Positions 53,492-64,000 of a DNA stretch of 64,000 bases are shown here, in pieces (within the stretch, counting starts at the first letter, position 1; the number at the start of each line of letters is the position of its first letter). This stretch comes from Bacillota bacterium. GTDB lineage: Bacteria > Bacillota > Dethiobacteria > Dethiobacterales > Dethiobacteraceae. The stretch covers positions 10,072 to 74,071 of the forward strand of contig JAAYSO010000105.1 in NCBI GenBank assembly GCA_012523945.1, read 5' to 3'. The notes beneath the pieces were generated by a model. That model ran no database searches. It saw nothing but the letters and a program-made list of their open reading frames with translations, and was not told the origin of the DNA. The translations under genes and the position numbers were made by a program.

Positions 53492-53530
53492 AAAGAACCA
53501 GCCAAAGGATGTTCCCTTGGCTGGTTCTTT
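53492..53530 (-). terminator. Hairpin terminator after tyrS
   Basis: aaagaaccagccaa / ttggctggttcttt 14-bp stem that touches the tyrS stop codon. The U tract on the minus strand is short. Confidence 0.5.
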
Positions 53531-54753
53531 TATTGCAAGATAGCCTTATGATAAGTTTTTTTACCTTTGCGCAGTTTCACACCTGCTTGCAGCTGTTCTG
53601 CCGTAACGAGAGTATCTACGGAAGCCACTTTGACATCATCAACAGAGACGCCCCCCTGCTGCACCAGGCGTCTGGCTTCACTTTTTGATTTCGTCAACCC
53701 GGTTGCTACCAACAAATCAATAATACTGATGGCCCCGTCAGTAAGATCAGTCCCTGCGATTTCTGTTGTGGGCATGGTAGCACTGTCAGCACCGCTGACA
53801 AAAAGGGCATAAGCTGCATCTTTTGCTTTTTGGGCTTCTTCCTCACCGTGTACCATTTTTGTCAGCTCAAAAGCCAGAATGGTTTTAGCCTCATTTAATT
53901 GGCTACCTTCCCATGCCGCCATTTCTTCAATTTGTTCAAGAGGTAAGAAAGTCAGCATCCGCAGGCAGTTAATCACATCGGCATCATCCACATTGCGCCA
54001 GTACTGGTAAAAATCATAAGGAGATGTTTTTTCCGGATCAAGCCAGACGGCACCTTTGGCTGTTTTGCCCATTTTTTGACCTTCTGCAGTCATTAAAAGC
54101 GGCACCGTCATAGCATAAGCGTCTTTGCCCAGTTTGCGGCGGATCAGCTCTGTCCCCGCCAGCATATTGGACCACTGATCATCGCCGCCAAACTGCATAT
54201 TGCAGCCATAATGCCGGAACAGGTAGTAGAAATCGTAAGCCTGCATAATCATATAGTTAAACTCCAAAAAGGAGAGACCTTTTTCCATCCGCTGTTTATA
54301 GCATTCGGCGCGCAGCATGGTATTCACGGAAAAATGGGGACCCACTTCCCGCAAAAATTCAATATAATTGAGTTTTAAAAGCCAATCGGCGTTATTGACC
54401 ATAATGGCTTTGCCCTCGCCAAACTCAATGAATTTTTCCATCTGCTTTTTAAAACATTGACAGTTATATTCTATGTCTTTCGGTGTCATTAATTGACGCA
54501 GATCGGTACGTCCGGAAGGATCACCAATATAGCCGGTTCCACCCCCGATCAGGACCACAGGTGTGTTACCTGCCATTTGCAAACGTTTCATCAGGCTCAA
54601 CTGCAGAAAATGCCCTACGTGCAAAGAGTCGGCAGTAGGATCAAAACCAATATAAAAAGTTGCTTTGCCCTCATTAACAAGACTTTTAATTTCCTCCTCA
54701 TCTGTCACCTGGGCTATTAAACCGCGAGCCGCCAGTTCTTCATAGACTTGCAT
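53530..54753 (-). CDS. tyrS: Tyrosine-tRNA ligase
   Basis: 407 aa. HIGH motif (DSLHVGH), KMSKS-type KMGKT, C-terminal S4-like domain. RBS GGAGGG. Preceded by a Tyr T-box. Confidence 0.95.
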
Positions 54754-54774
54754 TTAAACACCCTCCTACTATAA

Positions 54775-55030
54775 GTTAAGCCCTCTGTTCCGGACGGAAC
54801 AGAGGGCAAAGATTGCGGTACCACCTCTGTGACGGAAATTCCTCACGAAATTTCCCTCAGTGAGTGTAAGTAAATACACTCTGACGCTGTAGCGGGCGCA
54901 CCCGGCAAACCCTACTGTTATTTCAGGCTGCAGCTCCGGGATGTATTCGTTTCAGTACATCTGTATCCTTACACCTGCCGGATACTCTCTGTGAAGATGT
55001 TAACTGAACTACTTCTTCCCTTCATTACTT
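54775..55030 (-). promoter_or_regulatory. T-box leader with Tyr (UAC) specifier controlling tyrS
   Basis: On the minus strand: ATGAAGGGAAGAAGTAG, CAGAGAGT...GGTGTAA, and specifier GAA-TAC-A. T-box sequence is AGAGGTGGTACCGCAATC. A 12-bp GC-rich hairpin gccctctgttcc/ggaacagagggc follows. Confidence 0.85.
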
Positions 55031-55061
55031 GCCAGAATTAATTTTTTTCATGTTAGCCTTT

Positions 55062-55092: not shown

Positions 55093-57546
55093 TTACATTT
55101 CCAAAACGGTCCGGGAAATTAATTCATTTTGACTTGTCACATGCAACTCAACAAAGTAGGCGGAAAAGCCTGCTATCCTGACCACCAGGTCCCTATATTC
55201 ATCCGGATTCTTTTGTGCCTCCCGCAGGGTATCGGCGGAATGCACATTAATCTGCACTTCCATACCACCCAAATTAAAGTATGTTTGTATCAATTGGCTT
55301 AATTTCTTGATCCCGTCTTCGCCCCTCAGACAGGAGGGACTAAATTTCATATTGAGCAGGGTCCCGTTGGCAAAAGCGTCCTGTTTTAAGGTGGCAACAG
55401 ATCTGATAATGGCAGTGGGGCCGTTTTTATCCATCTGCTGCACCGGAGAAATGCCGTCGGAAAGCGGCACACCGGCATTACGCCCGTCCGGGGTGGCGGC
55501 AGTCATCATGCCAAACATCACATGGGCCGTGACAGGGAACAGGGCTGCAGTGTAACGTCCCCTGGGACCGGTAAAAGAGGTGACAATTTCCGCATATTTT
55601 TCCGCGGCCCAGGCAGCCCACTTGTCAACTTCAGGGTTGCCGTTGCCATAATGCAATTCAGAGCCTTTAATATACTGCTGCAGCTCCTCGTAACCTTCCC
55701 AGTTATTAAGCAGGGCATCATACAATTCACGGGTGGTGCATTTTTTTGTATCAAAGCAAAGATGTTTGATCATAAAGAGCGAATCGGCAATATTGCCAAT
55801 GCCTATGCCGGGAATACCTGTACCGTTATATTTGGCTCCGCCGTACATGACATCTTTGCCTTTTTCCATACAGCCTTCCATGGTGGCGGAAACTACCGGC
55901 AACGGTAAAACTTCACGCAGCACATATTCGGCATTATTATTGATAATCGCATGCCACCTGAGGAAGAATTCCATCTGTTTATGGAAAGCATCCAGAACAT
56001 CTTCAAAAGTTTCCATCTCATAGAGATAACCTGTAGGCAGACCAACCCGCTGCTTAATCATTTCGGGTTCCTTGTCCCCTTCTTTCGGGGCACCGAAACG
56101 CAGCGGTACAGGTAAGTGGCCGTCATTAATAGCCAGCCACAACGCATTAGGCAGGTTAATATAAGAGACACTGCCGGTACCGCCGCAGGCAGGCCAGTCA
56201 TTACCAGTGCCACCCGGTTCCACACAGCCTATCAGGGAATAGTCGCGGGCGTCTTCCAGGGTAAAACCTCTTTTTTGCATGGCCGGGATAATGACATCGT
56301 CATTTTCAAAGGTGGGAATACCGCCGCAAATTTTACTGGTCTCAATGGCTGCTTCCCACAGTTCAGGCGGTGTGTTTTTATGCACCCTGAGTGCCAGCGG
56401 TGTATGCAATTTGAGGCGGCTGCTGCTTTGCAGCATCATATAACTTACCTTATTAGAGGCGTCATTGCCGTCCTTATCGACGCCGCCCAATGTCATTAAC
56501 TGTCCCGTTGTATAACCGGGAGCCGATTGGGTGGCACCATAACTCCAGGGTTTATTCATTTCTACTACTTTCAGGAAAAAGAGATCCAGCAGTTCCTGTG
56601 CATATTCTTCAGTGATGGTGCCGTCTTGTAAATCTTTTTCTAAAAATTCTCCCAGGTACTGATCCACACGGCCGAAGCTAATTCCATGCAGATTTGCTTC
56701 CAGGCACAAGCAAGTCTGGTACATATACAAGCATTGCAGTGCTTCCACAAAATTGCGGGCCGGGTTTTCCATAACCCAATTCAGTGTTTCCACCATCATT
56801 GCCAGTTCTTTTTTACGTTTCGGGTTTGTTTCCACTGCCAGTTTTTCTGCAGCCAGCGCTGCATAGCGTTTCGTCAAGGTAATCATGCCGTCACAGACAA
56901 TGGCAACAGCACGGTAAAAATTATACTGTTCATTAGTATTGCCGGGCATGGTTTGGGTTAAAATTTCCGCCATTTTCCGTTCCGCTTCTTCTTTAATGGC
57001 TTTAAAACCAACTTTGATGGCTTTCTCATAACCGGCCACAAAATGGCCTACGGGGGTATCACTGATACACATGCGCCCAATCATGGTTACACCGTTAAAA
57101 TCATGCGGTGCATACTCTTCAGGGTAGTAGGCCTGTGTTTTGGCATGCGTACTTTCCCCCTGCAGCCAGTAATCAATGGTGTCTTTGATATATTCAATAT
57201 CTTCGTCGGCTACATCATAAGGATCTATGTCCCGGGTACGGATGGAGCCGCTGCAAATTTCATCCTTAATAAAAGTAACACAATTTTCCGGGTACAGTGC
57301 CCCTGCTTTAAATTTAGCCGATTGGGCGCCTACAATTACTTCATCATCATCTATGCGCACAGGAATTTTAGAAAAGATTTCATGCATTGCTTTGGCCCGG
57401 CGCAGAATACCGTTAAGTTCAGGATGATTCATGTAAAATTCGGTGAGGATTTTATAACGCGCGATACAAACTTCCGGTTTTGTCTTGCGCCAACGTTCAC
57501 GCAGTCTTGCCACTCGATCAGTAACAGGTTTTAGTTTCCAAGTCAT
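55093..57546 (-). CDS. Glycyl radical enzyme, PFL2/glycerol-dehydratase-like family (GRE-2)
   Basis: 817 aa from the ATG at 57546 (RBS GGAGG). The ORF-track start at 57618 adds 24 aa with no RBS. Cys loop LIGCVEPGGTGNDWPACGG. Glycyl radical motif VVRIAGFSAYFVEL near the C-terminus. Confidence 0.9.
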   Translation of the reverse strand: MTWKLKPVTDRVARLRERWRKTKPEVCIARYKILTEFYMNHPELNGILRRAKAMHEIFSKIPVRIDDDEVIVGAQSAKFKAGALYPENCVTFIKDEICSGSIRTRDIDPYDVADEDIEYIKDTIDYWLQGESTHAKTQAYYPEEYAPHDFNGVTMIGRMCISDTPVGHFVAGYEKAIKVGFKAIKEEAERKMAEILTQTMPGNTNEQYNFYRAVAIVCDGMITLTKRYAALAAEKLAVETNPKRKKELAMMVETLNWVMENPARNFVEALQCLYMYQTCLCLEANLHGISFGRVDQYLGEFLEKDLQDGTITEEYAQELLDLFFLKVVEMNKPWSYGATQSAPGYTTGQLMTLGGVDKDGNDASNKVSYMMLQSSSRLKLHTPLALRVHKNTPPELWEAAIETSKICGGIPTFENDDVIIPAMQKRGFTLEDARDYSLIGCVEPGGTGNDWPACGGTGSVSYINLPNALWLAINDGHLPVPLRFGAPKEGDKEPEMIKQRVGLPTGYLYEMETFEDVLDAFHKQMEFFLRWHAIINNNAEYVLREVLPLPVVSATMEGCMEKGKDVMYGGAKYNGTGIPGIGIGNIADSLFMIKHLCFDTKKCTTRELYDALLNNWEGYEELQQYIKGSELHYGNGNPEVDKWAAWAAEKYAEIVTSFTGPRGRYTAALFPVTAHVMFGMMTAATPDGRNAGVPLSDGISPVQQMDKNGPTAIIRSVATLKQDAFANGTLLNMKFSPSCLRGEDGIKKLSQLIQTYFNLGGMEVQINVHSADTLREAQKNPDEYRDLVVRIAGFSAYFVELHVTSQNELISRTVLEM

Positions 57547-57662
57547 CTTGCCTCCAATCTTTTTGCAACGAAAACAGTTCTGCTCCTGTTTTTGTGCAGC
57601 AGCCGCTTTTTCTAGCAAGCAGCAAGCTATTTTTCTCTTGTTTGAAAGGGAAAGGAGAATGT

Positions 57663-57689
57663 TGCCTCAAAACAGTCCGTTTTGAGGCA
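57663..57689 (-). other. Inter-GRE hairpin (possible weak terminator or processing site)
   Basis: Minus strand tgcctcaaaac-ggact-gttttgaggca, an 11-bp stem 8 nt after the GRE-3 stop. No clean U tract. Confidence 0.35.
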
Positions 57690-57696
57690 GCACTCT

Positions 57697-60150
57697 CTAA
57701 AGTGAATTCTCCGTCCTTCTGATCAGGTCGTCCTGACCGTCACGGCCCAGCTCCACAAAGTAAGCTGAATAACCGGCAATGCGCACCACCAGGTCACGGT
57801 AGGATTCAGGATCTTTTTGCGCGGCACGCATTGTTTCAGCATCAACAATATTGTACTGGATCTCAAGACCGCCGCGGTTAAAATAAGCTTGCGTCAACTG
57901 GCGCAGTTTCTGCTTGCCGTCCTCGCCATTGAGGGCGGAAGGATGAATACGCAGGTTGAGACAGACGCCGTTGACAAATTTTTTGTGATCATAACAGGTA
58001 GCGGAAATACAGACTGCAGTGGGACCGTTACGATCTCTGCCCTGTACCGGAGAGGCAGCGTCAGCAATAGGTTCGCCTGTGCGCCTGCCGTCCGGTGTGG
58101 CCCAAGTTGTGTAGCCTTGTGCGATATGGTCGGCAGCACTGTATAGTCCCGCTTTATAAACGGAAGCTCTTTCACTATAGCACTTTTTACAGATCTCATA
58201 ATAGGTATCACATACCCATTTCATCATTTCGTCGGCATAAGGATCAGCATTGCCAAAATGAGGGACTTCATTAATAATTGTCTGCCGCAGCTCTTCATAA
58301 CCTTCCCAGTTGGCCATAATAGCGTCATACATTTCCCGTGCCGTGCACAGTTTTTTCTCAAAGACCATGTACTTAATGGCAGTGAGGGAATCGGCAATGG
58401 TAGCCAGGCCGCTGGCAGTACCACCGTATGAATTGTACTTGGCGCCGCCCCAGGTGCAGTCCATACCTTTTTCCATACAGCCTTCAAGGGAAATGGAAAG
58501 ACCGGCTTCGGGGGCATAATGCTGAATTATATGCTCCACATAGTTATCAAAAGTAACTTGCAGTTTAGTCACATAATCAAGAATTTCTTTATAGGCACTC
58601 TTTACCTGTTCAAAATCAGTCATCTCATAGAGATAACCGCGCTGGATTTTACACTGTTCGCCGTTATAAGGGTTGATGCCGTTATTAATGGCCATGCCCA
58701 GTACCACACCATGGTGGATGCTGGCATATGGCGGTGAGACACCGTTACAGGCTGGATAGTCATTACCGCTGCCTACAATTTCCTGACAACCGATAATGCA
58801 GTAATCCCGTGCATCCTCCAGCGTAAAGCCAAGCTCCCGCCTGAGAGCCGGAATTATGACATCGTCATTTTGGAATAAGGGGATACCGCCACAAACTTTT
58901 GTAGTTTCAATGGCCAAATCCCATAATTCCACCGGTGTATTTTTATTAATGCGCAGGGAAATGGTAGGATCATGCAGGCGCAGCCGTCTCATGGTATCCA
59001 GCACCATATAAGTAACAGGGTTGGTAGCATCTGCACCTGTTTTAGGATCTACCCCGCCAATAGTAGTGTGCTGGTAAGTATTGCCGATACCGGTGGTTTC
59101 CGCCAGTTTGCCGGTGCCGCCGGCATAGAAACAGTTTGCTTTCAGGAAAAAGGCATCCAGATATTCCTGGGCCGTATCCAGATCAATGCGGCCTGCTTCC
59201 AGGTCCGCCTTTAGAAACGGCCAGGTATACTGGTCAATGCGTCCAAAAGCAGGCCCCGGGAAACTGGTCTCGGAAAATAAGTAAAGCTGGTACATAATAG
59301 TCAGCTGCAAAGCTTCCCAGAAAGTGCGGGCAGGATTTTCTGAAATCCACATTAAGCCGTCACCCATCATTTTCAGCTCTGCTTTGCGTTTTTCATCCTG
59401 ACACTCTTCCAGCTTACGGTAGCATTCTTCACCGTACCGTTTAATCATGATGGAAATGGCATCACAGGTGATAACCACAGACTTATAGAAAAGATACTTT
59501 TTAACTTTATCGCCCATGAGGTTACCGTTATGCTCGTCAATCCAGTCCTGGGCTTGCTTTCTGATGGCACCGATACCGGTGTTAATAATTTTTTTGTAGC
59601 CGGGAGAGATGTGGCCGGACTGCATCATAATCAGCGGTGAGCCCGGAACATTTTTACAGACATTTAGCCTGCACAGCTCATCATAGCCGTCAGGCTGCCA
59701 GGCATCGGCAATCCTTGTCAGTACATTCTCATCCCAGTAATCTTTAATGCTTTTTAGTTTCTCCACATCTTCGGGAGAAATGGTCAGCCGTACCATATCA
59801 GATTCCGGGTTATGGTACAGGCCGTCTTCCCCTAAATGCCAGGCTCCGGGAAAATCAGGATTGGTAAAAGGTTCAAGAAAAACACCATGCCATTCAACCA
59901 GATAAGTATTACCGAGAAAATGTTCTCCCCGGTTACCCACAATTACTTCAAAATCTTCTACGCGTACTTTCTTTTTCTTACAGTACTCCAACATTGCCAG
60001 CGGTTTTTTAATCACAGGAAGCACATGCTGGTACTTTTTATATGCTTCCGTAATAATCACGGCGCGTTCAGCATCATTACGAATAACTCTGTCGCGGATT
60101 AAATCCCGCATGTACTGAATGCGCTCCGTTACAGGTCTTGACTTGTGCAT
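57697..60150 (-). CDS. Glycyl radical enzyme, PFL2/glycerol-dehydratase-like family, divergent paralog (GRE-3)
   Basis: 817 aa. RBS AAGGAGGA. Cys loop IIGCQEIVGSGNDYPACNG. Glycyl radical motif VVRIAGYSAYFVEL. Confidence 0.9.
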   Translation of the reverse strand: MHKSRPVTERIQYMRDLIRDRVIRNDAERAVIITEAYKKYQHVLPVIKKPLAMLEYCKKKKVRVEDFEVIVGNRGEHFLGNTYLVEWHGVFLEPFTNPDFPGAWHLGEDGLYHNPESDMVRLTISPEDVEKLKSIKDYWDENVLTRIADAWQPDGYDELCRLNVCKNVPGSPLIMMQSGHISPGYKKIINTGIGAIRKQAQDWIDEHNGNLMGDKVKKYLFYKSVVITCDAISIMIKRYGEECYRKLEECQDEKRKAELKMMGDGLMWISENPARTFWEALQLTIMYQLYLFSETSFPGPAFGRIDQYTWPFLKADLEAGRIDLDTAQEYLDAFFLKANCFYAGGTGKLAETTGIGNTYQHTTIGGVDPKTGADATNPVTYMVLDTMRRLRLHDPTISLRINKNTPVELWDLAIETTKVCGGIPLFQNDDVIIPALRRELGFTLEDARDYCIIGCQEIVGSGNDYPACNGVSPPYASIHHGVVLGMAINNGINPYNGEQCKIQRGYLYEMTDFEQVKSAYKEILDYVTKLQVTFDNYVEHIIQHYAPEAGLSISLEGCMEKGMDCTWGGAKYNSYGGTASGLATIADSLTAIKYMVFEKKLCTAREMYDAIMANWEGYEELRQTIINEVPHFGNADPYADEMMKWVCDTYYEICKKCYSERASVYKAGLYSAADHIAQGYTTWATPDGRRTGEPIADAASPVQGRDRNGPTAVCISATCYDHKKFVNGVCLNLRIHPSALNGEDGKQKLRQLTQAYFNRGGLEIQYNIVDAETMRAAQKDPESYRDLVVRIAGYSAYFVELGRDGQDDLIRRTENSL

Positions 60151-60401
60151 CTGCTGCTCCTCCTTGTGGTAATAATTCCGGAACCTTTTACAGAAGCTGG
60201 CCAGGCACAGGGCAAAGACATTCTTTATCTCTTAATAATTGATTGTATCATATTTTTAACATCGTCAATAGTTATAAAAATAACTTAACTGAGCTTATTG
60301 CCACCCCTTTATGTTACAGCCCTGACTATCCTGCAACCCCTTAACAGTCCCCACCGGTTAGGTGAGAAGGCGAATCAAGATTGATATAGTTTTCTAACCG
60401 A

Positions 60402-60428
60402 CAAAAAAATGCCGCCTCAAAGGGCGGC
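60402..60428 (-). terminator. Rho-independent terminator after the MoaF-like gene
   Basis: Minus strand gccgccc-tttg-aggcggc, followed by ATTTTTTT. Confidence 0.65.
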
Positions 60429-60439
60429 AAGAGTTCATG

Positions 60440-62170
60440 TTATTTACGTTTTTTCTCAAAATATTTTAAAATATTGTATCCATAAAGGGGACGCACATAA
60501 GCACCCAGGGTGGTTAGCATTACGCTTAAATCATCCCCTTGTCCGCCTATTCCGAAGAAGAAACCGGAATCCTGCCAGAGCTGCGGATTAAGGATAAAAG
60601 TTCCCTGGTTGCCGTTGCAGGTATCTTCCGTCCAGCTGATAAGATAAGCATCCTCACGCAATTTGATATAAAGACAGGGAGAACTCCACATTACCCCGCC
60701 AGCGTTATTGGGCATCATAATTGTCCAGGAGCAAGATTCGGGAGAACTATAAACATGGACAGACTGCATAAAATCACTATAGACATTAGCTTGTGCTCTG
60801 CCCACCAATTCTGTGGTAAATCCATGGCGTTCCACAGCCGGCGGTGTGGGGCCTCCTTCCATTTCCAGCACACCAAAAATTGCTCTGCGTCCTACTTCCC
60901 AGGCTTTCCGTCCGTTGCCCAGCCGGGCATCCACACAAGTGACAAGAGCTTTGGAAAAGTCAATGGCATGGGTCAGGCAGCGCAGCGGATTGGTACCGGT
61001 ACAGATATGGCTGAAAAGGATAATATCCTTTGCCGGCTCAAAACCCTGGTAAATCTCTTCATGCCAGTTTTCTTCGCCTTCTTCCCTCCATTTTAAAGTG
61101 CTGGTATCAATAATTTCATATTCCCAGGCGGGGCCGTCATCAAAACGGAGAGTAAATTTTTTTCCTACCATGTAATCGGTAACTTCCATGGTATTCATAC
61201 TGGCCATAATGGACCGGCCTTCAAAAACTTTGCAATTATTCTTGATAATTTCCTCCACTTGTTCTGCGGTCAGATCAGGATATAAAAAGCGGGGCCGGTA
61301 GGAGGGACGGGTGCCTTTGGGATCATCAGCTTTCGGTTTTACACCTTCCGGCAGTTCCGTACCGTAGTCAGAAAGGGGTTCCAAATTAGTTACCTTACCT
61401 GTCACTTCACCGCAGCCGCTATACACCTGGTAATCCAGCTCGTCTTCAAGATTGAAACCCAGGCGCACGCCGATATGCTTTACTTCCATCAGATCTATGA
61501 CTTCTAAAACGAAAGTGCCGGAATATTCACAGTCAACACGGGAAAAGATGTAGTATTTATCATTAATTTTAATGAAGTCAGAAGGCCCGGTTATAGTAAT
61601 ACCGCCACGCGGATGACTCAATTCAACATAGGATGACCAGACCACAGAAGGGAAGAAGTAAAGCATTTCTTCACCGTTATCATTGCTCCAGTAAGTACCT
61701 AAACCTTCAAGCCTGTTAGTTAAGGCATGCCGTTTTTCCGGTACTGTTTCCCCGGTATCCACATAACCAAACATATAGTGGCGCCAGACTTCCCGCTTAT
61801 CATGTTCAAAGCCGCAGAACCAAACTTCAAACACTGTAACCAAGTTGGTTTTGCTGTCAATAACGACATTGTAGCCGCGGACGGTGCCGGGAACCATATG
61901 TGTAAACAAAATAATTCCATTATGTTCTTTAGCTGTGTAAGGTGCTTCAATGGCTGCCTGACCGTCTTCTTTTAAGGTCAAACTGTCTTTAGTAAAGGAG
62001 TATTCCAATGTGGGGCCGTCATCCAGTATAATTTTCAGTGTTTTTCCGGCCAGGACTTCAGATGTTCCGGAAAAAGCAATGGCTTTCGGGACAGGTGTCA
62101 GCTTTGCCTTAATCTGCTCCTCCGTGAGCCGGGTATACCGGTCATAGAAAGTTGCACGAAAATAATTCAT
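60440..62170 (-). CDS. Tandem-duplicated MoaF-like (calycin/PAD-like fold) protein
   Basis: 576 aa from the ATG at 62170 (RBS AAAGGAG); the ORF-track start at 62257 has no RBS. Two repeats each carry a MoaF_N-like part (GKTLKIILDDGPTLEY / GKKFTLRFDDGPAWEY). Each also carries a MoaF_C-like part (KRHALTNRLEG... / ERHGFTTELVG...). Confidence 0.65.
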   Translation of the reverse strand: MNYFRATFYDRYTRLTEEQIKAKLTPVPKAIAFSGTSEVLAGKTLKIILDDGPTLEYSFTKDSLTLKEDGQAAIEAPYTAKEHNGIILFTHMVPGTVRGYNVVIDSKTNLVTVFEVWFCGFEHDKREVWRHYMFGYVDTGETVPEKRHALTNRLEGLGTYWSNDNGEEMLYFFPSVVWSSYVELSHPRGGITITGPSDFIKINDKYYIFSRVDCEYSGTFVLEVIDLMEVKHIGVRLGFNLEDELDYQVYSGCGEVTGKVTNLEPLSDYGTELPEGVKPKADDPKGTRPSYRPRFLYPDLTAEQVEEIIKNNCKVFEGRSIMASMNTMEVTDYMVGKKFTLRFDDGPAWEYEIIDTSTLKWREEGEENWHEEIYQGFEPAKDIILFSHICTGTNPLRCLTHAIDFSKALVTCVDARLGNGRKAWEVGRRAIFGVLEMEGGPTPPAVERHGFTTELVGRAQANVYSDFMQSVHVYSSPESCSWTIMMPNNAGGVMWSSPCLYIKLREDAYLISWTEDTCNGNQGTFILNPQLWQDSGFFFGIGGQGDDLSVMLTTLGAYVRPLYGYNILKYFEKKRK

Positions 62171-62318
62171 TATTCTGACTCCTTTCAAGATTATGATTTT
62201 TACTGTCATTTCACCGTTTCTTCCCCCTGTAGCGGGGAACAAACGGCAAAAATTCACTTATTAATTTGTCTTTACCATCTTTATTATACAAGCATTCAGT
62301 GTAAATATCTAGCAATAT

Positions 62319-64000
62319 TTACTTATTGTTCTTGTCCAAAGCTTGTTTTACCCGTTTTATATTTTCTTCAGACAGAACATCAAGCAAATTATTTTGCGGT
62401 GCCACCATGTTATCCCGGTATGCCTGCATGATCTTTTCACTGGCAGTTGTAATTTCTTCCTTCAGTTTAGCGGCGGACATGACAGCATTACCTGCGCCTC
62501 TGATAATTATTTGCTGCAGGTTGTCCGAAGTGGCAACAATGATTTTATATTTTTTCCGGTGCTTATGGGAGAATTTTTCTATGAACTGGTCAGCCGTCTG
62601 TGCTTCCCTGGTAAAAACCACAAGCACATTATCATAAGTAAAAATTTCTTCCCGGTGGCGCTGAACCCGGTAAGCATCAAAAACAACCATAAGTTTGCAT
62701 TGGCGAATACTCTGGTATTTATTTAGACAATCAAGCAACTTTAATCTGGCGGCATCAAGACTGTCCTCAGCCAAAGCTTTTAGTTCAGGCCAGGCAAAAA
62801 TAATATTATAGCCGTCCACCAGCAGATATTCCTCTTTGGGCTGAACTTGCAGTTTTGCTTTTATAATATTATCGCTATCTTCCGGTTTTAAACGGTATTG
62901 CTTTAAAGCTTTTTCTTTATGCCTGAACACTTTTGCTTTTTTATTAGCATAAAAAGTTTTATCAAAGATTTTTTTTATTTCCTCCGGATCAATCCAGTTT
63001 CTTTCTTCCTCATTAGTTTTAGGTTTCTTGTTTTTTTGCGGCTTTGCTTTTTGAAAAATACTGGGCACATGCATATAATTTTTAACCTGGTCCCATTTGA
63101 CCGTAAATGTTTCACCGTTTTGATAAAAAACTGAACTTGCAGGGTTTTCCGCATCACTTTCTGCCTCATACCCTATCATGACCAACACTTCGTCTGGATT
63201 GTGGCAAAGTTCGTAGCCTGCCGGACTGTAAAAAAGCCTGCCGTGGCCTTCACTGTAATTTCTCACTTCTGCCTGATATTTGCGTAAATTGACAACAGGT
63301 GCCTTACCAACCAGTACTGCCAGCTCCCCCTCCAGATGCGAAACCTGGCAGGTACCGTGCATTCTCTCAATATCTGTCATGGCTCGTCCAATTAAACTTT
63401 GCGGCAGTTCCAACTCAAAGGAATAGTATGGTTCCAATAATACAGACTTTGCTTCCATTAAACCCTGGCGCAGGGCACGGGAGGCAGCCTCTTTTAAGGC
63501 GGTGCCGTCAGTATATTTGTTGTGACCGCGGCCTGCCGCTAAAGTAATTTTCAGATCGGTAACAGGAGCACCGGCCAGCACTCCTTTAGGCACATTTTGC
63601 TGCAGGCATTTTAAAACTATATTTTTCCAGTCTTGTGCCAGCATCTCCTCACTGCAGGCATCAGCAAACAAAAGACCGCTTCCCGGCTCTGCCGGCTCCA
63701 GTAAAAGATGGATTTCTGCATATTGACTAGCCGTGGCAAAATGGCCTACTCCCTCAACCGGACCGGTAATGGTTTCCTTATAAACAATTTTGCCGAAATC
63801 AAAGGACACATCCAAGTCAAGGCGGTCTTTAAGCAAACTCTGTAAGATTTCCACCTGCATTTCTCCCATCACTTGCACCCTGATTTCCTCTGCCTGTTCG
63901 TCCCAGGTAATTTGCAGTTGCGGATCTTCTTCTTCCAGTTGACGCACTTTGGGCAGTATGGCCCTGGGGCTGTGGCCTGCCGGCGGCAGTAATTGATAAG
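62319..64000 (-). CDS. EF-G/TetM-like translational GTPase (domains III-V visible) fused to a C-terminal Rae1/YacP-type NYN ribonuclease domain; 5' end beyond the window
   Basis: The frame stays open upstream of the ORF-track GTG to position 64000 (...YQLLPPAGHSPRAILPK-VRQLEEEDPQL). EF-G/TetM-like part includes LLEPYYSFELELPQ...GHGRLFYSPAGYE. A Lys-rich linker follows. NYN motifs are LLVDGYNIIFAWPELK, VVFDAY, VVFTREAQTADQFIEK, VATSDNLQQ. Confidence 0.8.
   Translation of the reverse strand, partial: YQLLPPAGHSPRAILPKVRQLEEEDPQLQITWDEQAEEIRVQVMGEMQVEILQSLLKDRLDLDVSFDFGKIVYKETITGPVEGVGHFATASQYAEIHLLLEPAEPGSGLLFADACSEEMLAQDWKNIVLKCLQQNVPKGVLAGAPVTDLKITLAAGRGHNKYTDGTALKEAASRALRQGLMEAKSVLLEPYYSFELELPQSLIGRAMTDIERMHGTCQVSHLEGELAVLVGKAPVVNLRKYQAEVRNYSEGHGRLFYSPAGYELCHNPDEVLVMIGYEAESDAENPASSVFYQNGETFTVKWDQVKNYMHVPSIFQKAKPQKNKKPKTNEEERNWIDPEEIKKIFDKTFYANKKAKVFRHKEKALKQYRLKPEDSDNIIKAKLQVQPKEEYLLVDGYNIIFAWPELKALAEDSLDAARLKLLDCLNKYQSIRQCKLMVVFDAYRVQRHREEIFTYDNVLVVFTREAQTADQFIEKFSHKHRKKYKIIVATSDNLQQIIIRGAGNAVMSAAKLKEEITTASEKIMQAYRDNMVAPQNNLLDVLSEENIKRVKQALDKNNK

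What the first reader, a model, noticed from the sequence alone, without database searches (positions are those of the whole stretch)
62319..64000. Ribosomal GTPase (EF-G/TetM-like) covalently fused to a Rae1/YacP A-site endoribonuclease domain
One uninterrupted minus-strand frame runs from EF-G/TetM-like domains III-V into a NYN domain. The EF-G/TetM part includes QVEILQSLLKDRLDLDV, LLEPYYSFELELPQSLIGRAMTDIERMHG and EGHGRLFYSPAGYELC. A Lys-rich linker of roughly 90 aa connects the two parts.

The C-terminal ~150 aa match B. subtilis Rae1/YacP motif for motif: LLVDGYNIIFAWPELK, MVVFDAY, VVFTREAQTADQFIEK, IVATSDNLQQ. All the conserved acidic positions are present.

Rae1 is known as a translation-dependent nuclease that cuts mRNA in the ribosomal A site. 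EF-G/TetM-type factors place their domain IV in that same site. A fusion therefore suggests a GTPase-delivered, ribosome-targeted RNase with a role in quality control, stress response, toxin-like or defence-like activity. I am not aware of a characterised example. The GTPase domain lies off-window.
Basis: partly seen in the sequence, partly recalled or inferred. Interest (0 to 1): 0.75.

Follow-up and report, generated by a model that had tools for sequence, protein, structure and literature searches.

The report
Tet-like ribosomal GTPase fused to Rae1 nuclease
The window ends inside a real single gene that joins a ribosome-binding GTPase of the EF-G/TetM type to a complete Rae1-type RNA-cutting domain; this fusion is common in Clostridia and was noted in print in 2015 and 2017, but nobody has tested what it does.

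Summary
Observation confirmed. One uninterrupted minus-strand frame (63998 down to the TAA at 62319-62321, 559 codons) carries EFG_III, EFG_IV, EFG_C and a full NYN_YacP domain (Pfam E 1.5e-48). The NYN part is 40% identical to B. subtilis Rae1, and all four catalytic Asp and the D-GYN motif are present.

The off-window N-terminus is a GTPase. A 98.9%-identical contig and a syntenic 882-aa orthologue (75% identity) show it, with G1-G4 invariant in 83 aligned homologues.

The fusion is not new. Atkinson 2015 and Matelska 2017 both recorded TetM-like/NYN_YacP fusions in Clostridia. Here it appears in hundreds of species genomes. It is chromosomal, has no conserved neighbours, and is essentially absent from plasmids, phages and defence models.

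It is not a true tetracycline-protection protein. It scores 413-436 bits against a cut-off of 775, is about 30% identical to Tet(O/Q/B(P)), and lacks the Tet YSPVS loop.

New details:
- Lactobacillaceae have NYN-less orthologues.
- A conserved 45-aa extension follows domain V.
- The tether has a nearly fixed length of about 78 aa.

[quoted passage not shown] Best reading: a GTPase-delivered mRNA surveillance nuclease. Function is untested.

The parts
62319..64000 (-). 3' 1680 nt (559 codons plus stop) of a roughly 880-codon gene for a Tet-like translational GTPase fused to a Rae1-type NYN nuclease. The 5' part, about 320 codons covering the G domain and domain II, lies beyond the window end.
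   Evidence: Open frame. Orthologue P0002 is 882 aa and syntenic. L005 extends the same sequence and shows GTPase motifs.
63804..63944 (-). EF-G domain III (aa 19-65)
   Evidence: Pfam EFG_III, E 6e-8.
63447..63794 (-). EF-G domain IV (aa 69-184)
   Evidence: Pfam EFG_IV, E 1.3e-19.
63489..63533 (-). Domain IV tip loop, GRGHNKYTDGTALKE (aa 156-170). It aligns with the Tet loop-III motif YSPVSTPADFR and the EF-G motif SYHDVDSSEMAF but matches neither. It also departs from the family consensus GRAHNKHTEGGDFRE.
   Evidence: Alignment with Tet(O), Tet(Q), TetB(P) and EF-G. Family conservation.
63198..63443 (-). EF-G domain V (aa 186-267)
   Evidence: Pfam EFG_C, E 1.8e-15.
63069..63206 (-). Family-specific C-terminal extension of the GTPase body (aa 265-310: CHN..EV..GY..E.D..NP..SVF..G..V.W..VK.YMH), predicted as helix, beta-hairpin and short helix.
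   Evidence: Invariant or near-invariant columns. pLDDT 79-86 in the AF2 model of P0002, residues 594-634. Also present in the NYN-less Lactobacillaceae orthologues, absent from Tet and EF-G.
62829..63068 (-). Tether (aa 311-390, 80 aa), predicted disordered or weakly helical. Lys-rich in this lineage (22 K+R, 13 D+E).
   Evidence: pLDDT below 50. Length is nearly fixed in the family: median 78 aa, 5-95% range 77-104, n=177.
62943..62996 (-). Conserved mid-tether motif WIDPEEIKKIFDKTFYAN (aa 335-352)
   Evidence: Found by regex in 120 of 177 homologues, 25-28 aa after the extension and 33-43 aa before the NYN domain. W, EE, I, T, A and N are 90% or more conserved.
62343..62825 (-). Rae1/YacP-type NYN endoribonuclease domain (aa 392-552), followed by the end of the basic C-terminal helices (to aa 559, nt 62322).
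   Evidence: Pfam NYN_YacP, E 1.5e-48. PDB 5MQ8/5MQ9, E 2e-21. Foldseek top hits are Rae1 only. dN/dS 0.085 against L001.
62814..62816 (-). Catalytic Asp 1 (D395, in LLVDGYN; equals Rae1 D7), followed by the GYN signature.
   Evidence: alignment. Invariant in 83 homologues.
62676..62678 (-). Catalytic Asp 2 (D441, in VVFDAY; equals Rae1 D53)
62589..62591 (-). Catalytic Asp 3 (D470, in QTADQF; equals Rae1 D81)
62523..62525 (-). Catalytic Asp 4 (D492, in ATSDNL; equals Rae1 D104)

Best explanation
The gene encodes a housekeeping-type, chromosomally inherited Clostridial translation factor. Its body is a five-domain GTPase of a distinct clade that is sister to the tetracycline ribosomal-protection proteins. 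On a fixed-length tether of about 80 aa it carries a complete and catalytically competent Rae1-type NYN endoribonuclease.

Most likely mechanism:
1. (Inferred) The GTP form binds the ribosomal factor site, with the G domain on the sarcin-ricin loop and domain IV towards the decoding centre. The target is a ribosome that is stalled, either with a vacant A site or blocked in a collision.
2. (Inferred) The tether then lets the Rae1 domain reach mRNA at the edge of that ribosome or at the interface with its neighbour, and cut it.
3. (Inferred by analogy with stand-alone Rae1) The truncated mRNA is degraded and the ribosomes are rescued by tmRNA.
4. (Inferred) GTP hydrolysis releases the factor.

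Shown here: the single-ORF architecture, intact GTPase and nuclease motifs, purifying selection on both halves, wide vertical distribution, and the lack of Tet-specific residues. Not shown: ribosome binding, the RNA substrate, the cut position and the physiological trigger.
For: - One ORF carries all the domains.
- In the genome scan, 71 of the 80 best loci have the P-loop and the NYN domain in the same ORF, and 6 more are cut by contig ends.
- GTPase motifs G1 AHVDAGKTT, G2 RGITI, G3 DTPGH and G4 NKMD are invariant across 83 homologues.
- The four NYN Asp residues and GYN are invariant.
- dN/dS is 0.10 for domains III-V and 0.085 for the NYN domain, window against its 75% orthologue.
- The NYN part equals a whole Rae1, residues 3-159 plus the C-terminal helices.
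- Rae1 is an experimentally established translation-dependent mRNA endonuclease acting at stalled or collided ribosomes and feeding tmRNA (PMC12407103; PMC13622287).
- The body is structurally EF-G-like (Foldseek E about 1e-50) and its best profile match is tet_protect. These are factors that act only on the ribosome.
- The same GTPase clade, including the extension, exists without the NYN domain in Lactobacillaceae. This suggests a factor with a ribosomal role of its own to which Rae1 was added.
- The tether length and a mid-tether motif are conserved, which argues for a defined geometry.
- The gene has an ordinary sigma-A-type promoter and short UTR, no attenuator and no conserved partners.
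Against: - There is no experiment on any member of the family.
- No structure of Rae1 on a ribosome exists, so the geometry cannot be checked.
- If Rae1 cuts at the mRNA exit side of the stalled ribosome, that site is far from the factor-binding site of the same ribosome. The model then needs either the trailing ribosome or a long reach.
- The window's own lineage has changed the otherwise conserved domain IV tip, so its decoding-centre contacts may differ.
- Whether fusion-bearing genomes also keep a stand-alone Rae1 could not be tested.
Confidence: 0.55

Rival explanations
1. It is a tetracycline (or other A-site antibiotic) ribosomal-protection protein whose nuclease adds a second resistance mechanism, as Atkinson 2015 suggested.
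For: The best NCBIfam match is tet_protect. Some records annotate it as 'TetM/TetW/TetO/TetS family'. The NJ tree places the clade next to Tet(O/Q/B(P)). Atkinson 2015 raised this idea.
Against: - It scores 413-436 bits against the curated cut-off of 775, and far below every specific Tet model.
- It is only 29-35% identical to Tet(O), Tet(Q) and TetB(P), about the same as to EF-G (30%).
- The Tet-conserved domain IV loop [YF][YF]SP[VA]STPADFR is replaced by GRAHNKHTEGGDF, or GRGHNKYTDGTAL in the window.
- It is chromosomal with varied housekeeping neighbours, has no leader or attenuator, and is not on ordinary plasmids (3 of 72,556 records, all large secondary replicons).
Confidence: 0.1
2. 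It acts on stable RNA rather than mRNA. In this reading it is a GTPase-gated nuclease for rRNA or tRNA maturation, ribosome-assembly quality control, or degradation of damaged or idle ribosomes.
For: Stand-alone yacP sits in the gltX-cysS-mrnC-yacO operon with rRNA and tRNA processing genes, which led to a 'processome' proposal (Matelska 2017; Atkinson 2015 citing Anantharaman and Aravind). A factor bound at the GTPase centre is close to 23S and 16S rRNA elements.
Against: All experimental data on Rae1 show translation-dependent mRNA cleavage and tmRNA coupling. No conserved linkage of the fusion gene to RNA-processing genes was found.
Confidence: 0.2
3. It is a toxin-like or anti-phage abortive-infection effector that shuts down translation when triggered.
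For: The PIN/NYN nuclease plus NTPase architecture recurs in defence systems. The 2026 preprint speculates that Rae1 could act against phage mRNAs. One locus (Agathobacter) has a BrnT/CopG pair next door.
Against: No PADLOC model matches. No conserved antitoxin or partner was found: the commonest neighbour family occurs in only 6 of 84 loci. Only one partial hit was found in IMG/VR. The family is present across whole clostridial families in single-gene housekeeping contexts with strong purifying selection.
Confidence: 0.05
4. The fusion is an artefact: two adjacent genes merged by an assembly or reading error.
For: Many database 'proteins' from this family are split or truncated (P0001, L096, L097, L098).
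Against: Those splits trace to indel-ridden or gapped assemblies. The window frame is intact over 559 codons. Hundreds of independent genomes, including complete ones (Desulfitobacterium, C. thermosuccinogenes), have the same single ORF of about 880 aa.
Confidence: 0.02

Closest known systems
Rae1/YacP of Bacillus subtilis (ribosome-associated endoribonuclease 1; PDB 5MQ8/5MQ9)
   Same: The C-terminal 170 aa are a full-length homologue. They are 40% identical, with the same D-GYN motif, four Asp and basic C-terminal helices, and Rae1 is the unique structural hit. A shared activity is expected: translation-dependent mRNA cleavage.
   Different: Rae1 is a free 170-aa protein encoded in the cysS-mrnC-yacO-yacP operon. 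How it is recruited to ribosomes is unknown. Here the domain is covalently tethered to a translational GTPase and the gene stands alone.
Tetracycline ribosomal-protection proteins Tet(M)/Tet(O)/Tet(Q)/TetB(P)
   Same: They share the five-domain layout (G, II, III, IV, V) with a short G' region, give the best profile match, and form the sister clade in a small NJ tree.
   Different: Identity is about 30%. The scores fall well below all curated cut-offs. The tetracycline-displacing YSPVS loop is absent. A different, longer C-terminal extension is present. The gene is not on mobile elements.
TetM-like/NYN_YacP fusion proteins of Clostridia, as noted by Atkinson 2015 (BMC Genomics) and Matelska et al. 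2017 (NAR)
   Same: This is that family, with the same domain order and the same taxonomic group.
   Different: Those papers gave one or two sentences (ten species in 2015) and no function. The extension, the fixed tether, the NYN-less Lactobacillaceae orthologues and the loss of Tet signature residues were not described there.
NYN-less 'translation factor GTPase family protein' of Lactobacillaceae (about 640-660 aa)
   Same: These are 46-50% identical over domains G to V. They have the same domain IV tip type (..HT.GGDFR) and the same post-domain-V extension.
   Different: They end right after the extension, with no tether and no nuclease.
SmrB (E. coli) and Cue2/NONU-1 (eukaryotes): collision-sensing mRNA endonucleases. 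Also Ski7/Hbs1-type GTPase-fold adaptors that bring decay machinery to stalled ribosomes (from general knowledge; SmrB and Cue2 are also discussed).
   Same: The functional analogy is a nuclease activity directed to stalled or collided ribosomes. In the Ski7/Hbs1 case this happens through a translational-GTPase-like module at the A-site/factor site.
   Different: The nuclease folds are unrelated (SMR against NYN). No covalent GTPase-nuclease fusion is involved. The analogy is inferred, not tested.

Membership tests
NYN_YacP / Rae1 family (PF05991) | Profile match above the curated threshold over the whole domain | tested here: met
   165.4 bits against a cut-off of 24.6, model positions 1-163 of 166.
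NYN_YacP / Rae1 family (PF05991) | 'GYN' motif directly after the first catalytic Asp in strand 1 (Matelska 2017) | tested here: met
   LLVD395-GYN is present. D, Y and N are invariant and G is at least 90% conserved in 83 homologues.
NYN_YacP / Rae1 family (PF05991) | Four conserved active-site Asp residues | tested here: met
   D395, D441, D470 and D492 align with Rae1 D7, D53, D81 and D104.
NYN_YacP / Rae1 family (PF05991) | NYN/PIN-like fold with two basic C-terminal helices | tested here: met
   AF2 model plus Foldseek: 5MQ9/5MQ8 are the only significant hits (E 3e-11, TM-target 0.75). Helices are predicted at the C-terminus.
NYN_YacP / Rae1 family (PF05991) | Translation-dependent endonucleolytic cleavage of mRNA | not testable with these tools
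   Needs biochemistry or genetics.
Translational GTPase superfamily, EF-G/EF2 family | Domains III, IV and V with EF-G topology | tested here: met
   Pfam EFG_III, EFG_IV and EFG_C. Foldseek of the orthologue model against EF-G gives E about 1e-51.
Translational GTPase superfamily, EF-G/EF2 family | N-terminal G domain with G1-G4 motifs, including the catalytic His of DxxGH | tested here: met
   Not in the window itself. Shown in the 98.9%-identical contig L005 (broken frames) and in orthologue P0002. AHVDAGKTT, RGITI, DTPGH and NKMD are invariant in 83 homologues.
Translational GTPase superfamily, EF-G/EF2 family | Ribosome-dependent GTP hydrolysis | not testable with these tools
   Needs biochemistry.
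Tetracycline ribosomal-protection proteins (NCBIfam NF012153 tet_protect and specific Tet models) | Score at or above the curated equivalog cut-off | tested here: not met
   Full-length orthologues score 412.8 and 435.6 bits against a cut-off of 775. They score 268-295 against 1100 for TetM/W/O/S.
Tetracycline ribosomal-protection proteins (NCBIfam NF012153 tet_protect and specific Tet models) | Conserved domain IV loop III, [YF][YF]SP[VA]S, that enters the tetracycline site | tested here: not met
   The aligned segment is GHNKYTDG in the window and AHNKHTEG in the family. Tet(O), Tet(Q) and TetB(P) all carry (Y/F)(Y/F)SP(V/A)S.
Tetracycline ribosomal-protection proteins (NCBIfam NF012153 tet_protect and specific Tet models) | Confers tetracycline resistance; usually carried on mobile elements | tested here: inconclusive
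   The phenotype is not testable here. The context is chromosomal and non-mobile. Only 3 of 72,556 plasmid records carry the fusion, all large secondary replicons.
Elongation factor G proper (TIGR00484) | Score above cut-off, and the EF-G domain IV tip (SYHDVDS) with the GGxGQYG loop | tested here: not met
   305-309 bits against a cut-off of 659. Both loops differ.
Known anti-phage defence systems (PADLOC-DB 2.0) | Match to any defence-protein model | tested here: not met
   No family at E of 1e-3 or better for the window protein or P0002.

The most novel reading that the evidence does not exclude
The fusion may be a 'Rosetta stone' for how Rae1 finds ribosomes. In this reading, Rae1-type nucleases work from the translation-factor binding site of a stalled or trailing collided ribosome. 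The conserved tether of about 78 aa, with its mid-tether motif, would act as a ruler from the GTPase-associated centre to the mRNA at the ribosome edge or inter-ribosome gap. In Bacilli and Lactobacilli, the free Rae1 would cooperate with a separate factor: the NYN-less orthologue where present, or EF-G-like factors. GTP hydrolysis would then gate mRNA cleavage, giving bacteria a GTPase-licensed no-go-decay step.
Probability: 0.2. Interest if true: 0.8.

Novelty: new member of a known kind. Interest (0 to 1): 0.45.

Why it matters
Rae1 has just been recognised as the nuclease that starts rescue of collided ribosomes in Gram-positive bacteria (2025-2026). Its ribosome-binding mode is still unknown because the interaction is too transient to capture.

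A natural protein in which a whole Rae1 is covalently tied to a factor that docks at a known ribosomal site could be a ready-made tool. It is inferred, not tested, that a GTPase-dead or GDPNP-locked fusion would trap the nuclease on the ribosome for cryo-EM and show where it sits and what it cuts.

The family is abundant in gut Lachnospiraceae and other Clostridia and is routinely mis-annotated as a tetracycline-resistance gene or as EF-G. The sequence evidence here argues against it being a classical Tet determinant. If tests confirm that, it would clean up resistome counts.

Tried and rejected
- **Regulatory leader upstream of the gene, as in tet(M) or ARE-ABCF genes.** Rfam finds nothing upstream in four loci; the only hits are unrelated T-boxes. 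A terminator-like hairpin within 400 nt upstream occurs in only 13 of 54 loci. Alignment of upstream regions shows an ordinary -35/-10 promoter and a short UTR. Rejected.
- **Conserved operon partners, including the HTH genes mentioned by Matelska 2017.** All-against-all clustering of ORFs in 84 loci finds no neighbour family in more than 6 loci. Rejected.
- **Stand-alone NYN proteins 60-80% identical to the fusion's NYN, as evidence for natural split versions.** The three contexts inspected are frameshifted, gapped or duplicated fusion genes. These are artefacts, not evidence. One locus, L065 (extension, tether and NYN without a GTPase within 1.4 kb upstream), remains unexplained.
- **Co-occurrence of the fusion with a canonical stand-alone rae1 in the same genome.** No tool gave whole-genome access, so this was not resolved.
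- **Plasmid or phage carriage.** Essentially none.
- **The original Rae1 paper (Leroy 2017) and whether it mentions the fusion.** It is not in the held library.
- **P0001, the closest database protein (96%).** It turned out to be a mis-called fragment from a contig with 0.6x coverage.
Full report

Yes. The minus-strand frame entering the window at 63998 stays open for 559 codons and ends at a TAA at 62319-62321.

Pfam assigns four domains:
- EFG_III, aa 19-65
- EFG_IV, aa 69-184
- EFG_C, aa 186-267
- NYN_YacP, aa 392-552, E 1.5e-48, covering essentially the whole model

The best NCBIfam matches are the generic tetracycline-protection and EF-G models, all far below their curated cut-offs.

A sequence search of the PDB with the last 179 aa finds only B. 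subtilis Rae1/YacP (5MQ8/5MQ9, E 2e-21). The alignment is collinear over Rae1 residues 3-159, with 57 of 141 positions identical. The four active-site aspartates of Rae1 (D7, D53, D81, D104 by my count on that alignment) correspond to D395, D441, D470 and D492 of the window protein. The family-specific GYN follows the first Asp (criteria from Matelska 2017). An AlphaFold model of the window's own C-terminal 296 aa hits Rae1 alone in Foldseek (E 3e-11, TM 0.75 on the target). The next hit is at E 1e-2.

**2. The part beyond the window**

Two independent sources show that the missing N-terminus is a translational GTPase domain.

Contig L005 is 98.9% identical to window 56001-64000 and continues past the window end. 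It comes from a 0.6x-coverage assembly full of indels. Even so, MKKL..HVDAGK, RGITIFSKQ, LDTP, EMERTLQVLD and FIFVNK(M/W) are readable across its broken frames.

A MAG contig (L001, GCA_012521405.1) holds the 75%-identical orthologue P0002 in the same gene order as the window: CoA-transferase, fusion gene, MoaF-like gene, two glycyl-radical enzymes, then T-box and tyrS. P0002 is a single 882-aa protein with GTP_EFTU, EF-G_D2, EFG_III, EFG_IV, EFG_C and NYN_YacP.

**3. How common is it, and is it already known?**

The protein search returned thousands of relatives. The best 120 are almost all 840-960 aa with the same six Pfam domains. They come from Desulfitobacterium, Thermoclostridium, Lutispora, Cellulosilyticum, Clostridium thermosuccinogenes and many MAGs, and are named 'translation factor GTPase family protein', 'small GTP-binding protein', 'EF-G' or 'TetM/TetW/TetO/TetS family'.

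The best 80 are all Clostridia apart from one Haloplasmataceae MAG and one MAG labelled Bacteroides. They include Lachnospiraceae such as Roseburia, Lacrimispora, Enterocloster, Anaerostipes and Blautia; Desulfitobacteriaceae; Clostridiaceae; Peptostreptococcaceae; Anaerovorax; and Fusibacter. In 71 of the 80 the P-loop and the NYN domain are in one ORF, and 6 more are cut by contig ends. An exhaustive HMMER search gave 313 clusters (at 50% identity) at E of 1e-30 or better, mostly 840-1150 aa.

The architecture is in the literature:
- Matelska et al. [quoted passage not shown]

I found no paper that tests the function. The window therefore holds a new member of a recorded but uncharacterised family.

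**4. Anatomy of the family**

In an 83-sequence alignment the GTPase motifs are invariant: G1 AHVDAGKTT, G2 RGITI, G3 DTPGH with the catalytic His, and G4 NKMD. So are the four NYN aspartates.

Against its 75% orthologue, the window gene shows dN/dS of 0.10 over domains III-V and 0.085 over the NYN domain. Both halves are under strong purifying selection.

The AlphaFold model of P0002 (pLDDT 78.6) shows domains G, II, III, IV and V. It also shows a confidently folded 40-45 aa extension after domain V (residues 594-634: helix, hairpin, short helix). A low-confidence segment follows (642-709), and then the NYN domain.

- a conserved extension (window aa 265-310);
- a true tether (aa 311-390).

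The tether length is nearly constant across 177 homologues: median 78 aa, 5-95% range 77-104. A conserved motif W-I-D-x-E-E-I-x-x-I-(3-4)-T-Y-x-A-N lies 25-28 aa into it. Lysine richness (net charge +9) is particular to the window lineage; the family median is about 0.

**5. Is it a Tet protein?**

No, by the tests available.
- Full-length orthologues score 413-436 bits on NF012153, where the cut-off is 775. They score much lower on the specific Tet models.
- Over domains G to V they are 29-35% identical to Tet(O), Tet(Q) and TetB(P), and 30% identical to Klebsiella EF-G. In a small NJ tree they form their own clade, sister to the Tet proteins.
- The domain IV loop that all three Tet references share, (Y/F)(Y/F)SP(V/A)STPADFR, is replaced by GRAHNKHTEGGDFRE in the family and by GRGHNKYTDGTALKE in the window. 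From general knowledge of the Tet(M)-ribosome structures, this is the loop that reaches the drug site. The EF-G loops (GGxGQYG and SYHDVDS) are also absent.
- The gene is chromosomal with unrelated neighbours in each lineage.
- Only 3 of 72,556 plasmid records carry the fusion, all large secondary replicons. Only one partial hit was found in IMG/VR. No PADLOC model matches.

**6. A related factor without the nuclease**

The plasmid search turned up 46%-identical proteins in Ligilactobacillus salivarius megaplasmids that stop right after the extension (644 aa). A follow-up search shows this NYN-less form (640-665 aa) in Companilactobacillus, Levilactobacillus, Paucilactobacillus, Pediococcus and Lactiplantibacillus, on contigs of up to 2-3 Mb that are presumably chromosomal.

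The GTPase clade, including its special extension, therefore exists on its own in Lactobacillaceae. Clostridia have the version with Rae1 attached. This is a classic fusion/non-fusion pattern, and it hints that this factor and Rae1-type nucleases work on the same target. It is not proof.

**7. Regulation and context**

No Rfam family lies upstream. There is no consistent terminator or attenuator (13 of 54 loci). Several genera share a plain -35/extended -10 promoter about 70-80 nt upstream and an AAGGA ribosome-binding site. No neighbouring gene family recurs in more than 6 of 84 loci.

In the window, the gene is followed by a promoter-like site and a MoaF-like gene. The first terminator-like hairpin comes after that gene. 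The picture is of a constitutively expressed stand-alone gene.

**8. Mechanism**

That premise has changed. Deves et al. [quoted passage not shown] Tetreault et al. 2026 show that Rae1 generates tmRNA substrates on collided ribosomes. They note that no ribosome-bound Rae1 structure exists.

The best-supported reading has four steps, all inferred:
1. The GTP-bound factor docks at the factor-binding site of a ribosome that cannot proceed.
2. The tethered Rae1 domain cuts mRNA at the periphery of that ribosome or in the gap to its neighbour.
3. Rescue and decay follow, as for free Rae1.
4. GTP hydrolysis resets the factor.

One geometric point favours a trailing-ribosome model. This is inference from general ribosome architecture. 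The factor site lies on the mRNA-entry side, and in a disome the entry side of the trailing ribosome faces the exit side of the stalled one, which is where Rae1 cuts.

Everything beyond architecture, motif integrity, selection and distribution is inferred.

Rival explanations and rough probabilities:
- A Tet-type resistance factor: 0.1. It is disfavoured by section 5.
- A stable-RNA or ribosome-turnover nuclease: 0.2. It is supported only by the yacP operon context in Bacilli.
- A toxin or defence effector: 0.05.
- An assembly artefact: 0.02.

**9. Verdict**

The finding is real and correctly described at the domain level. It is a member of a known but functionally unstudied family, so it is not categorically new.

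Its value is as a lead. With Rae1 now central to Gram-positive collision rescue and its ribosome contact unknown, a natural GTPase-tethered Rae1 is an attractive experimental handle. The family's frequent annotation as tet(M)-like or EF-G is probably wrong. Interest 0.45.

Noticed in passing
L005 (ENA ERZ2647830 NODE_1477), protein P0001: The closest database 'protein' (P0001, 514 aa, 96% identity) is a mis-called fragment from a 0.6x-coverage, indel-ridden contig of essentially the same organism. Its last 47 aa are the window's NYN region read out of frame, and all neighbouring genes on that contig are also shattered.
   Followed up: yes
window 55093-62257 (-), with 53530-55034 (-): Downstream of the fusion gene lie a 605-aa MoaF-like protein (MoaF N-terminal-type matches plus MoaF_C) and two tandem PFL-like glycyl-radical enzymes (817 and 841 aa). 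A T-box leader (54799-55034) and tyrS follow. The order is the same in the 75% orthologous contig L001. No radical-SAM activase was seen beside the two enzymes.
   Followed up: partly
window 63489-63533 (-); P0002 residues 482-496: The window/P0002 lineage has replaced the domain IV tip H-x-K-H-T-x-G-G-D-F-R, which is at least 90% conserved in the family, with GHNKYTD(G/E)(T/I)AL(K/Q)E. The rest of domain IV stays conserved. This suggests altered decoding-centre contacts in this lineage.
   Followed up: partly
L008 5402-7920 (L. salivarius megaplasmid NZ_CP117984.1): The NYN-less orthologue (644 aa) sits divergently next to an rpsN (ribosomal protein S14) paralogue and a tiny 'putative metal homeostasis protein'. 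It is flanked by IS elements.
   Followed up: no
L097 3837-6879; L065 1421-2462: In L097 the extension-plus-tether segment is duplicated in tandem and the gene is split into a 737-aa GTPase ORF and an overlapping 292-aa NYN ORF. In L065 a 347-aa ORF has extension, tether and NYN but no GTPase within the 1.4 kb upstream. These could be assembly artefacts or rare natural variants.
   Followed up: partly
upstream of the fusion gene in L015-L057 (e.g. L021, L024, L025, L016): Across several genera the 5' region shares a TTGTCA..(TG)GTATCATAAT-type promoter and an AAAGGATTTGAAAT ribosome-binding region 8-12 nt before the start codon. This is more conserved than expected for unrelated intergenic DNA.
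   Followed up: partly
L009 5310-5818 (Agathobacter rectalis NZ_CP143948.1): A BrnT/CopG toxin-antitoxin pair lies immediately upstream (divergent) of the fusion gene in this one species. It is not seen in other loci.
   Followed up: no
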